From Escherichia phage EcS1, in the sequence record NC_055721.1: a DNA stretch of 64,000 bases. One strand, written 5' to 3'. Both the position numbers and the translations under genes were made by a program. Below the pieces are notes generated by a model that did not search any database, was not told where the DNA came from, and saw only the letters and a program-made list of their open reading frames with translations. Positions within the stretch are counted from its first letter, which is position 1. Each line of letters starts with the position of its first letter. This document shows, piece by piece, positions 10,305 to 12,121 of this stretch.

Positions 10305-10324
10305 AATATTTTCCTCATTTGAAT

Positions 10325-10401
10325 TGGTGGCCCTTGTCGGAGTCTAACCGACCTTACACCAGTTATGAGCTGGGCACTTTCACACGAAAGTATAAAGGGC
10401 C
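10325..10401 (-). tRNA. tRNA-Met-like (anticodon CAT), non-canonical D and T loops
   Basis: 77 nt with perfect acceptor stem and CCA, anticodon loop CTCATAA; D-loop lacks GG and T-loop is TTAGACT. Confidence 0.4.
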
Positions 10402-10458
10402 ATTATTAAAATATTTTTACTTTAATAATGGCCCTCTCCGAAGAGAGGACAGAGGGTA

Positions 10459-10743
10459 TTACTTACACATGAACTTAGCAACTTCATCGAAGCTGTTCAA
10501 GATGTAATAAGACTTAGGCGCACTGTATTCAGTAGGTTTAATAGTAATACGTACACGACCATGCAAGTCTTCAACTAATCCAACAACAGCACTTGAACGA
10601 ACAACAGCACGAGCAGTTGTAGGAATCTGACCGGTAGTCAGAGCTTGAAGTTCGGTGTCAATAAGGATTACAATACGTTCAGACATTTTAATTTCCATTT
10701 GTTGTTTCGATGTAGTAATAATAACATGATTATTTTGAAGCAT
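10459..10743 (-). CDS. hypothetical protein
   Basis: 94-aa ORF; start uncertain (internal Met candidates). Confidence 0.4.
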   Translation of the reverse strand: MLQNNHVIITTSKQQMEIKMSERIVILIDTELQALTTGQIPTTARAVVRSSAVVGLVEDLHGRVRITIKPTEYSAPKSYYILNSFDEVAKFMCK

Positions 10744-10801
10744 AACCGTTCAGAGACTAAAAAGCCCAGTACAAGATTTCTCTTGCCCGGGCGTCATTAT
10801 T

Positions 10802-10876
10802 TGGAGCAGCATATCGGACTCGAACCGATGTCGACTGGGTGGAAGCCAGTAATATTAACCACTATACGAATGCTGC
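10802..10876 (-). tRNA. tRNA-Gly (anticodon TCC)
   Basis: Acceptor GCAGCAT/ATGCTGC, anticodon arm ACTGG-CTTCCAC-CCAGT, T-loop TTCGAGT, CCA encoded. Confidence 0.7.
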
Positions 10877-10877
10877 A

Positions 10878-10951
10878 TGGCAGGCCCTGTAGGAATCGAA
10901 CCCACGTCGCTGAGGTTGGAGCTCAGAATGATACCACTATACCAAGGACCC
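10878..10951 (-). tRNA. tRNA-Trp (anticodon CCA)
   Basis: Anticodon arm CTGAG-CTCCAAC-CTCAG, T-loop TTCGATT, CCA encoded. Confidence 0.65.
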
Positions 10952-11102
10952 GTTGATTGTACGGAACGCCTGGATTCGAACCAGGTTACAAAGCAGTTGA
11001 CGCTCCTTTGTATTTTGTAAGGCCATCATCTCGACCATATCCGAACGTTTCGTCAAAAACGCTACTCGGCTTATGGCAAAGACAAATCCTCGAACCGATA
11101 AT

Positions 11103-11177
11103 TGGTGGGAGCTGTTGGTAACGATCCAACCTCTCGAGCTCTTCAGGCAAGCGCTAATCCGTCTCAGCTAAACTCCC
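11103..11177 (-). tRNA. tRNA-Phe-like (anticodon GAA), weakened anticodon stem
   Basis: 75 nt, acceptor GGGAGTT/AGCTCCC plus ACCA; anticodon loop CTGAAGA; two mismatches in the anticodon stem and an atypical T-loop. Confidence 0.4.
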
Positions 11178-11262
11178 AGATCCACAAGAACTTTACAAGC
11201 ATTGCGCTTAACCTTTTCAGGAAGTTAGGGTACTATTTCTAGTCTGTGGTTATCCCTATTTT

Positions 11263-12045: not shown

Positions 12046-12121
12046 TGGAGGCGAGTGATGGAATCGAACCATCGCGTAAAGGGATATGAACCCTTTATTC
12101 TACCACTGAAGTTAACTCGCT
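12046..12121 (-). tRNA. tRNA-Met (anticodon CAT), initiator-like features
   Basis: Anticodon loop TTCATAT closed by three consecutive G-C pairs (GGG/CCC); 1-72 position is an A-C mismatch; T-loop TTCGATT; CCA encoded. Confidence 0.55.

What the first reader, a model, noticed from the sequence alone, without database searches (positions are those of the whole stretch)
10325..11177. Non-canonical or decaying tRNA genes inside the cluster
Three tRNA-shaped genes deviate from canonical structure: 10325..10401 (CAT anticodon, D-loop without GG, T-loop TTAGACT, 5' end buried in a perfect 14-bp hairpin at 10397..10434); a perfect T-arm at 10961..10985 for which no acceptable acceptor or anticodon arm could be found within 10961..11053; and 11103..11177 (GAA anticodon with two anticodon-stem mismatches). 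They may be pseudogenes, processing scaffolds or decoys.
Basis: seen in the sequence. Interest (0 to 1): 0.4.

Follow-up and report, generated by a model that had tools for sequence, protein, structure and literature searches.

The report
Odd but conserved phage tRNAs and rnaC
The three odd tRNA-shaped genes in this T4-like phage are not decaying: two are unusual phage-only tRNA types kept intact by selection, and the third is this phage's copy of T4's long-known small RNA rnaC.

Summary
The window is a T4-like phage (nearest relatives Winklervirus, about 82% identity). Its tRNA cluster lies on the minus strand. All three features exist as described. ARAGORN misses all three, and the Rfam tRNA model scores two of them low (26.9 and 36.0 bits, against 42-73 for the other 17 tRNAs).

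None is decaying.
- **10325-10401** is a tRNA(CAU) of a phage-only family. Its cloverleaf is supported by compensatory changes (14 of 24 pairs). It keeps the acceptor-stem pairs that E. coli TilS reads on tRNA-Ile2. Its D-loop/T-loop pair 19:56 is U:A instead of G:C.
- **The 'orphan T-arm'** is the 3' end of a 139-nt ortholog of T4 rnaC (species 1 RNA), at 10960-11098. rnaC is tRNA-like and its function is unknown.
- **11103-11177** is a tRNA-Phe(GAA) of a large phage family that includes T5-like phages. Positions 54 and 58 of its T-loop are swapped (A54/U58) and covary across the family. Its mismatched anticodon arm recurs unchanged in about a quarter of members.

The unusual features are real and conserved. 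Why they exist (possibly escape from host factors that read tRNA shape) is inference.

Next to the finding, at 11178-11262, lies a rare pseudoknotted 85-nt RNA element with no Rfam match.

The parts
10325..10401 (-). Atypical tRNA(CAU), tRNA-Ile2-like, with encoded CCA. The D-arm has a 3-nt linker and no GG. The T-loop is UUAGACU. The 27:43 position is a C.U mismatch. The inferred tertiary pair is U19:A56.
   Evidence: Rfam tRNA 26.9 bits, full length. The minimum-energy fold is a cloverleaf, z = -3.3. In the 13-sequence family alignment A5, 96.8% of cells are paired and 14 of 24 pairs have compensatory changes. The 19:56 pair is UA in 11 sequences, CG in 1 and GC in 1. Relatives annotate it as tRNA-Ile2, tRNA-Met or nothing.
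10397..10434 (-). Perfect 14-bp hairpin (10-nt loop) in the transcript. Its 3' arm contains bases 1-5 of the tRNA(CAU).
   Evidence: Read directly. It forms in the fold of 10322-10462, z = -5.4. It is conserved in LC53 and Kc304, where the tRNA body is a different, canonical one. It does not meet the terminator criteria.
10433..10448 (-). Short GC-rich hairpin CCUCUC-UUCG-GAGAGG just upstream. It shares 2 bases with the 14-bp hairpin.
   Evidence: Read directly. Conserved in LC53 and Kc304.
10960..11098 (-). Ortholog of T4 rnaC (species 1 RNA), 139 nt. It has an acceptor-like stem closed by the 5' and 3' ends, a T-arm at 10969-10985, a 10-bp hairpin with the loop GCGUCAAC, and a long 5' hairpin domain.
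   Evidence: 85% identity to T4 rnaC over its full length, E = 2e-36. Alignment A1. T4 annotation. RNAalifold on 12 homologs: 46 pairs, 12 with compensatory changes, including 5:138 GC<->AU and 119:131 GC<->UA.
11103..11177 (-). tRNA-Phe(GAA) of the phage 'T5-type' family, with encoded CCA. T-loop AUCGUUA (A54/U58). Two anticodon-stem mismatches. G37.
   Evidence: Rfam tRNA 36.0 bits. 100% identical in LC53 and Kc304. About 90% identical to tRNA-Phe of T5-like phages. Family alignments A8 and A10 are 95.5-96% paired, with 17 of 21-22 pairs compensatory. The 54:58 pair is AU in 44, UA in 28, GC in 2, CG in 1 and other in 11.
11178..11262 (-). It has five helices plus a 4-bp pseudoknot and two GNRA tetraloops.
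   Evidence: Seven distinct homologs in three unrelated phage groups. 100% of 175 cells are paired and 10 of 25 pairs are compensatory. No Rfam match.

Best explanation
The region holds three functional, selectively maintained RNA genes of the phage's tRNA operon, not pseudogenes.

(a) 10325-10401 is a phage-only variant of the AUA-reading tRNA-Ile2(CAU).
- It keeps a full cloverleaf, the CUCAUAA anticodon loop, A73-CCA, and the C4:G69 and C5:G68 pairs that E. coli TilS uses as identity elements.
- The host is therefore expected to convert C34 to lysidine and charge the tRNA with isoleucine (inferred).
- Its elbow is rewired: the G19:C56 pair is replaced by U19:A56.
- In the closest relatives the same genomic slot holds the ordinary T4-type tRNA-Ile(CAU). 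The window therefore carries an alternative allele of the same gene.

(b) 10960-11098 is the ortholog of T4 rnaC, a tRNA-like stable RNA. It is presumably cut out of the tRNA precursor by host RNase P and 3' trimming. Its function is unknown.

(c) 11103-11177 is a tRNA-Phe(GAA) of a large phage family. In this family T-loop positions 54 and 58 covary (here A54:U58), and one sub-lineage carries a fixed anticodon arm with two internal mismatches and G37.

Shown: homology, conservation, covariation and phage restriction. Inferred: expression, processing, modification, aminoacylation, and the reason for the unusual shapes. The most plausible reason is escape from host enzymes or defence nucleases that read the tRNA elbow or anticodon arm, while ribosome function is kept.
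For: **Identity of the window.** It is a T4-like phage whose best public matches are Winklervirus at about 82%.

**(a) The tRNA(CAU)**
- Homologs occur in 31 phage records across Karamvirus, Kanagawavirus, Tulanevirus, Plateaulakevirus and three jumbo-phage genera.
- The cloverleaf is 96.8% paired. 14 of 24 pairs have compensatory changes. 0 of 500 shuffles reach the observed covariation score.
- C4:G69 and C5:G68 are invariant. They are the EcTilS identity elements (PMC12514573).
- The 19:56 pair is U:A in 11 sequences, C:G in 1 and G:C in 1.
- There are no matches in 100,044 bacterial and archaeal genomes.
- ARAGORN of 11 relatives tRNA-Met(cat).
- The flanks are nearly identical to LC53 and Kc304, whose slot holds a tRNA 79% identical to T4 tRNA-Ile.
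- AUA usage in window ORFs is 8.7 per 1000 codons, against 4.9 in E. coli (PMC12514573).

**(b) rnaC**
- 85% identity to T4 rnaC over its full length, E = 2e-36.
- It lies in the tRNA cluster, as in T4.
- Its structure is conserved, with 12 compensatory pairs.

**(c) The tRNA-Phe**
- Rfam score 36.0, above the gathering score of 29.
- Identical in genomes that are about 82% identical overall.
- Across 86 distinct family members, 96% of cells are paired and every acceptor and anticodon-stem pair covaries.
- 23 of 86 members have non-pairs at both 28:42 and 29:41, although their acceptor stems differ.
- Only 5 hits in 100,044 cellular genomes. Two lie in large tRNA arrays on MAG contigs and two next to a tRNA-Asn.
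Against: - There are no expression, end-mapping, modification or charging data for this phage.
- Feature (a) scores below Rfam's tRNA threshold. It lacks A14 and G19 and has a C.U mismatch at 27:43.
- Its 5' strand is sequestered by a strong hairpin in the precursor, which could limit maturation.
- The 19:56 covariation rests on only two independent departures. One of them (JNE01) has a wholly different T-loop.
- Feature (c) has A54, G37 and two stem mismatches. It lacks some nucleotides that, from my memory of the E. coli PheRS literature, act as identity elements, so charging by the host enzyme is not assured.
- The T-arm-based scan fixed the T-loop by design.
- rnaC is missing from several close relatives, so it is dispensable.
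Confidence: 0.8

Rival explanations
1. Pseudogenes: the three are decaying tRNA genes that no longer give functional RNA.
For: ARAGORN misses all three. Feature 1 is below the Rfam gathering score. Feature 3 has two stem mismatches. One relative annotates a neighbouring CAU gene as tRNA-Pseudo.
Against: - Each feature is conserved across unrelated phage groups, with abundant compensatory changes and few uncompensated ones.
- Feature 3 is 100% conserved where the neighbouring DNA is 82-88% identical.
- The 'defects' themselves (U19:A56, A54:U58, the mismatched arm) are shared by many members.
- Feature 2 is a known expressed RNA in T4.
Confidence: 0.04
2. Defence-evasion or decoy tRNAs: the unusual elbow, T-loop and anticodon arm were selected mainly so that these RNAs resist, or soak up, host tRNA-cleaving defence nucleases or toxins. 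Supplying codons would be secondary.
For: - Both tRNA families are essentially restricted to phages.
- The changes fall on surfaces that proteins read: the elbow pair 19:56, the T-loop pair 54:58 and the anticodon stem.
- The literature shows phage tRNAs escaping tRNA-targeting defences (PMC10264068, PMC11464382 and PMC11555353, all listed).
Against: No nuclease is known to me that reads 19:56 or 54:58. Nothing here links these variants to a defence system. The published cases involve anticodon-loop changes. AUA is used more in the phage than in E. coli, which fits plain codon supply.
Confidence: 0.2
3. Processing punctuation: the tRNA-like folds serve chiefly as RNase P and RNase E landmarks. 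They would cut the long cluster transcript and release neighbouring RNAs (rnaC, the 85-nt element, small mRNAs), and would not act as decoders.
For: - The elements are packed end to end with 1-7 nt spacers.
- The 85-nt element always follows a tRNA CCA and usually abuts the next tRNA.
- A hairpin overlaps the 5' end of feature 1.
- rnaC is tRNA-like yet has no anticodon loop.
Against: Features 1 and 3 keep canonical 7-nt anticodon loops with U33, fixed CAU or GAA anticodons, A73-CCA, and (for feature 1) the TilS identity pairs across their families. Mere cleavage signals would not need these.
Confidence: 0.08

Closest known systems
Bacteriophage T4 rnaC (species 1 RNA; NC_000866 70908-71046)
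   Same: 85% identical over the whole 139 nt. It lies in the tRNA cluster directly after a CCA-ended RNA. It has the same predicted architecture, with a tRNA-like acceptor stem and T-arm.
   Different: In T4 it follows rnaD. Here it follows a tRNA-Phe and precedes tRNA-Trp, and the window has no rnaD homolog. Some homologs (LC53, L090) have lost the UUCGAAU loop.
T4 tRNA-Ile (anticodon CAU) and E. coli tRNA-Ile2 (ileX)
   Same: CAU anticodon in a CUCAUAA loop, GGCCC...GGGCC acceptor end with C4:G69 and C5:G68, and A73-CCA. It occupies the same slot as the T4-type gene in Winklervirus relatives.
   Different: Only 62-70% identical. It has no G18G19 dinucleotide, U19:A56 instead of G19:C56, an extra linker base before the D-stem, a C.U mismatch at 27:43, and is below Rfam's tRNA threshold.
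tRNA-Phe(GAA) of T5-like phages (Demerecviridae), e.g. Escherichia phage EscoHU1
   Same: About 90% identical. It has the same D-arm, the same mismatched anticodon arm GCUUGCCUGAAGAGCUYG, and the same T-loop AUCGUUA.
   Different: The acceptor stem is entirely different but still paired (GGGAGUU/AGCUCCC against GCACCUU/GGGGUGC). Position 42 is C here and U in T5-like phages.
tRNA pseudogenes
   Same: Low scores with tRNA finders and departures from universal nucleotides.
   Different: The departures are conserved and compensated across families, the opposite of neutral decay.
T4 rnaD (species 2 RNA), as the nearest analogue of the 85-nt element
   Same: A small structured non-tRNA sequence embedded between tRNA genes of a T4-like cluster, near rnaC.
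   Different: No sequence similarity. The covariance model of the element finds nothing in the T4 locus. The element has no CCA end and contains a pseudoknot.

Membership tests
tRNA (Rfam RF00005), feature 10325-10401 | Score at or above the curated gathering score (29 bits) | tested here: not met
   26.9 bits, full-length alignment, E = 3.8e-4.
tRNA (cloverleaf), feature 10325-10401 | Four helices kept by compensatory change; 7-nt anticodon loop with U33 and a purine at 37; discriminator plus CCA | tested here: met
   96.8% of cells are paired, 14 of 24 pairs are compensatory, and 0 of 500 shuffles reach the score. The CUCAUAA loop and ACCA end are invariant.
tRNA (L-shape), feature 10325-10401 | G18-U55 and G19-C56 D-loop/T-loop contacts | tested here: inconclusive
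   G19:C56 is absent. A D-loop base covaries with T-loop position 56 (UA in 11, CG in 1, GC in 1). A G precedes that base and U55 is kept in 12 of 13. There are only two independent changes and no 3D data.
tRNA-Ile2 (lysidine tRNA) | CAU anticodon plus C4:G69 and C5:G68, the E. coli TilS identity elements | tested here: met
   All invariant in 13 of 13 family members. The identity elements are as stated in PMC12514573.
tRNA-Ile2 (lysidine tRNA) | Lysidine at C34 and charging with isoleucine | not testable with these tools
   Needs mass spectrometry and aminoacylation assays.
T4 rnaC / species 1 RNA | Full-length sequence homology to T4 rnaC | tested here: met
   85% identity over 140 aligned columns, E = 2e-36. 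nhmmer gives E = 1.3e-26.
T4 rnaC / species 1 RNA | Located in the tRNA gene cluster on the same strand, abutting CCA-ended RNAs | tested here: met
T4 rnaC / species 1 RNA | Accumulates as a stable small RNA during infection | not testable with these tools
   Shown for T4 only (PMC9697503).
tRNA (Rfam RF00005), feature 11103-11177 | Score at or above the curated gathering score (29 bits) | tested here: met
   36.0 bits, full length.
tRNA-Phe | GAA anticodon in a 7-nt loop; cloverleaf kept by covariation | tested here: met
   96% of cells are paired across 86 sequences. All acceptor and anticodon-stem pairs covary.
tRNA-Phe (canonical bacterial) | U54-A58 T-loop pair, a fully paired 5-bp anticodon stem, and A37 | tested here: not met
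   A54/U58, mismatches at 28:42 and 29:41, and G37. The universality of U54 is stated in PMC7912444. A37 in bacterial tRNA-Phe is from my own knowledge.
tRNA pseudogene | Uncompensated, lineage-specific loss of structure with no conservation beyond close relatives | tested here: not met

The most novel reading that the evidence does not exclude
Phages maintain their own tRNA designs in which universally conserved tertiary contacts are rewired (U19:A56 in the Ile2-like family; a freely swapping 54:58 pair and a fixed mismatched anticodon arm in the Phe family). This would let them escape host proteins that read tRNA shape while still working on the ribosome. In addition, the adjacent 85-nt pseudoknotted element may be a previously undescribed class of stable RNA carried in phage tRNA operons.
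Probability: 0.25. Interest if true: 0.6.

Novelty: new member of a known kind. Interest (0 to 1): 0.3.

Why it matters
- **For annotation.** Standard tRNA finders silently miss two real tRNA genes and a known small RNA in this genome. Public relatives label them inconsistently as tRNA-Met, tRNA-Ile, tRNA-Ile2, tRNA-Phe or nothing. Counts of phage tRNA repertoires and codon-supply analyses are therefore biased.
- **For biology.** The families give natural examples in which 'universal' tRNA tertiary pairs (G19:C56, U54-A58) are replaced in a compensated way. This offers test material for what the ribosome, RNase P, modification enzymes and tRNA-directed defence nucleases really need from the tRNA elbow.
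- **For unknown RNAs.** rnaC still has no known function after fifty years. The alignment and structure here, and its presence/absence among close relatives, give handles for genetics.

Tried and rejected
- **Mis-specified scans.** Two collection scans were mis-specified by one base and gave only chance hits. They were corrected after checking the patterns by regex.
- **More copies of the 85-nt element.** A metagenome scan gave three chance matches. A covariance model found no further copy in 627 kb of phage tRNA-cluster loci. There were no matches in plasmids or E. coli genomes.
- **Rfam.** It has no family for rnaC or for the 85-nt element.
- **rnaD.** No rnaD homolog in the window.
- **Terminator scan.** It does not flag the hairpins upstream of the tRNA(CAU).
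- **Neighbouring ORFs.** Pfam on five small neighbouring ORFs gave only a sub-threshold DUF7336 hit.
- **Alternative rnaC acceptor stem.** I considered ACGRAACG pairing with the 3' end. It gives A.C, G.U or G:C, whereas closure by the 5' end gives clean G:C<->A:U covariation in all 12 sequences. I preferred the latter.
- **ToxI mimic.** I considered the 85-nt element as a mimic of the ToxI antitoxin, because of a shared CUAGAAAU recalled from memory. That stretch is a stem-loop that changes by compensation, so the resemblance is coincidental.
- **Papers not held.** Papers on T4 species 1 RNA processing and on the 54-58 pair were not in the library.

Full report
**Context**

The window is a T4-like phage. 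A 25-kb query finds Winklervirus phages (Serratia LC53 and CHI14, Kosakonia Kc304, Erwinia Vettismorki) at about 82% identity as the best public relatives. An IMG/VR contig of 175,437 bp is locally identical to the window and is probably the source genome. ARAGORN finds 17 tRNA genes on the minus strand between 8120 and 13284, and none at the three places named in the finding.

**Checking the observation**

- All three features are in the sequence as described.
- Feature 1 (10325-10401, minus strand) has a 7-bp acceptor stem, a CUCAUAA loop, the T-loop UUAGACU, no GG in the D-loop, and an encoded ACCA end.
- The perfect 14-bp hairpin 10397-10410 / 10421-10434 covers its first five bases.
- The T-arm of feature 2 is at 10969-10985.
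- Feature 3 (11103-11177) has a GAA anticodon and mismatches at 28:42 and 29:41.
- The Rfam tRNA model aligns feature 1 full-length at 26.9 bits, below the gathering score of 29. It aligns feature 3 at 36.0 bits. The other 17 tRNAs score 42.5-72.8 bits.
- On their own, features 1 and 3 fold into cloverleaf-like minimum-energy structures.
- The deviations are real.

**Feature 2 is rnaC**

- Window 10954-11107 matches many T4-like phages.
- In T4 itself this region of the tRNA cluster is annotated rnaC (species 1 RNA) next to rnaD.
- T4 rnaC aligns to window 11098-10960 over its full length at 85% identity, E = 2e-36.
- Twelve distinct homologs give a consensus fold with four parts:
  - an acceptor-like stem in which the 5' end pairs with the 3' end (pair 5:138 switches G:C to A:U in six sequences);
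  - the T-arm, which stacks on that stem (119:131 switches G:C to U:A);
  - a 10-bp hairpin carrying the conserved loop GCGUCAAC;
  - a long irregular hairpin that takes the place of a D-arm.
- Reviews and a 2022 transcriptome study still list rnaC as of unknown function (PMC3014915; PMC9697503).
- rnaC is present in the window, LC53, Kc304 and Pet-CM3-4. It is absent from Vettismorki and Gravdalen, where tRNA-Phe is followed by tRNA-Trp after a 9-nt spacer. CHI14 and X20 align with the same two-piece gap over this stretch.
- The window has no rnaD homolog.

**Feature 1 is a conserved, phage-only tRNA(CAU)**

- In LC53 and Kc304 the same slot, with nearly identical flanks including both upstream hairpins, holds a canonical tRNA(CAU). 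That tRNA is 79% identical to T4 tRNA-Ile.
- The window's version is only 62-70% identical to those. It has 77-89% relatives in 31 phage records from Karamvirus, Kanagawavirus, Tulanevirus, Plateaulakevirus and three jumbo-phage genera. These are annotated variously as tRNA-Ile2, tRNA-Met, tRNA-Ile or nothing.
- In thirteen distinct sequences, 96.8% of cells in a cloverleaf are paired and 14 of 24 pairs show compensatory change. No shuffle or slid register comes close.
- C4:G69 and C5:G68 are invariant. They are the dominant identity elements for E. coli TilS (PMC12514573). This supports an Ile2 (AUA-reading) identity. tRNAscan-based annotations of two relatives agree.
- Position 27:43 is mostly a C.U mismatch.
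- The D-loop base that I equate with position 19 covaries with T-loop position 56: U:A in eleven sequences, C:G in phage PAc and G:C in JNE01.
- The elbow pair therefore seems kept but rewired. This rests on only two independent changes.
- The family is absent from 100,044 bacterial and archaeal genomes and occurs on only seven IMG/VR contigs.
- ARAGORN of 11 relatives and misses the window, so the miss is marginal.
- AUA is used at 8.7 per 1000 codons in window ORFs, against 4.9 in E. coli.

**The hairpin over the 5' end of feature 1**

The hairpin belongs to the slot, not to the tRNA family. It is conserved in LC53 and Kc304 with a different tRNA body. It is absent upstream of the homolog in Pet-CM3-4. 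In a fold of the precursor it forms and displaces the acceptor stem. It does not meet simple terminator criteria. Its role is open: it could be a processing site or a partial terminator. From memory, RNase III sites upstream of T4 tRNAs have been described.

**Feature 3 is a member of a large phage tRNA-Phe family**

- It is 100% identical in LC53 and Kc304, although the adjacent 85 nt are 87.5% identical and the genomes about 82%.
- It is about 90% identical to tRNA-Phe of T5-like phages, and also resembles that of Citrobacter phage Tr1.
- A scan anchored on the T-arm gave 35 distinct sequences, 95.5% paired, with 17 of 21 pairs compensatory.
- A scan anchored on the D-arm left the T-loop free. 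It gave 86 distinct sequences, 96% paired.
- In the D-arm set, positions 54 and 58 covary: A:U in 44, U:A in 28, G:C in 2, C:G in 1 and other in 11.
- Near-identical T5-type sequences differ only by AUCGUUA against UUCGAUA.
- U54 is described as universally conserved, with A54 known only in eukaryotic initiators (PMC7912444).
- 23 of 86 members have non-pairs at both 28:42 and 29:41. They share the arm GCUUGCCUGAAGAGCUYG (with G37) although their acceptor stems differ. The mismatches are therefore a fixed trait.
- That arm can also adopt a shifted 4-bp register. The meaning of this is unknown.
- Only five cellular genomes hold this T-arm type. Two hits lie in large tRNA arrays on MAG contigs, and two lie next to a tRNA-Asn in Pantoea and Mixta.

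**Interpretation**

- The three features are maintained RNA genes: two phage-type tRNAs and rnaC.
- Expression, processing by host RNase P, lysidine formation and charging are inferred, not shown.
- Why the tertiary contacts are rewired is unknown.
- Escape from host factors that read the elbow or anticodon arm is plausible. Phage tRNAs are known to evade tRNA-targeting defences (PMC10264068, PMC11464382 and PMC11555353). [quoted passage not shown] Nothing here tests this idea.

**By-product: an 85-nt structured element**

- The 85 nt between tRNA-Ile(GAU) and tRNA-Phe (11178-11262) are a structured element.
- It is shared with Winklervirus, with two Henunavirus phages of Erwinia and with Citrobacter phage Tr1. 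It always sits a few bases after a tRNA CCA end.
- Seven distinct sequences fit five helices plus a 4-bp pseudoknot, with 100% of cells paired and 10 of 25 pairs compensatory.
- Two of the loops are GNRA tetraloops.
- It has no Rfam match. No other copy turned up in the loci held, metagenomes, plasmids or E. coli genomes.
- Its function is unknown.

**Verdict**

The 'decaying' reading is rejected. The middle feature is an already known RNA. The two tRNAs are new members of existing but poorly described phage tRNA families with compensated departures from universal tRNA tertiary pairs. Interest is modest for the finding itself. It is somewhat higher for the tertiary-pair covariation and for the 85-nt element.

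Noticed in passing
window 11178-11262 (-): An 85-nt element lies between tRNA-Ile(GAU) and tRNA-Phe. It has five helices, a 4-bp pseudoknot and two GNRA tetraloops. It is shared with Winklervirus, Henunavirus (Hena1, pEa_SNUABM_55) and Citrobacter phage Tr1, and always follows a tRNA CCA end. 100% of cells are paired and 10 of 25 pairs are compensatory. There is no Rfam match and no copies in metagenomes, plasmids or E. coli genomes. It may be a new stable RNA of phage tRNA operons.
   Followed up: partly
window 10397-10452 (-); L001 and L002 about 1510-1570: Two adjoining hairpins lie upstream of the tRNA(CAU): a UUCG-capped GC stem and a 14-bp AT-rich stem that absorbs tRNA bases 1-5. They are conserved in LC53 and Kc304 even though the tRNA body there is a different, canonical one. 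In the predicted precursor fold the tRNA 3' strand pairs with upstream CCCU instead.
   Followed up: partly
window 10325-10401 against L001 1434-1509: The tRNA-Ile(CAU) slot shows an allele swap. The flanks are nearly identical between the window and Winklervirus relatives, but the tRNA body is replaced, with boundaries at the shared GGCCC and ACCA ends. In jumbo phages the atypical allele sits next to HNH homing endonuclease genes (L008, L012, L013).
   Followed up: partly
A10 columns 53 and 57 (tRNA positions 54 and 58); loci L040-L178: In the phage tRNA-Phe family the T-loop reads xUCGyUA, with x:y = A:U (44), U:A (28), G:C (2), C:G (1) and C.A or other (11). This is covariation at the normally invariant U54-A58 reverse-Hoogsteen pair.
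   Followed up: partly
window 10960-11098; L037 and L038 1587-1738; L001 about 2060-2200: rnaC is present or absent among close relatives. It is missing in Gravdalen and Vettismorki, and CHI14 and X20 show the same alignment gap. In LC53 and L090 its T-loop-like UUCGAAU is replaced by UGCAUCC or UGCAUGC while the stem is kept.
   Followed up: partly
window 12046-12121 (-): The other CAU tRNA looks initiator-like. It has an A1.C72 mismatch and three G:C pairs at the bottom of the anticodon stem. It also has an unusual UUCAUAU loop and a UCCA end. Its Rfam score is only 44 bits.
   Followed up: no
window 11138-11152 (-), anticodon arm of tRNA-Phe: The conserved mismatched arm GCUUGCCUGAAGAGC can also form a shifted 4-bp stem (G26:C40, C27:G39, U28:A38, U29.G37) with the loop GCCUGAA. 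This is the register chosen by the energy model. Position 37 is G, not the A of bacterial tRNA-Phe.
   Followed up: no
L103, L105, L107 (Pantoea and Mixta genomes); L104, L106 (MAG contigs): The few 'bacterial' hits to the phage tRNA-Phe T-arm lie in 13- and 22-gene tRNA arrays on MAG contigs, or next to a tRNA-Asn in Pantoea and Mixta. These are probably phage or prophage DNA.
   Followed up: no
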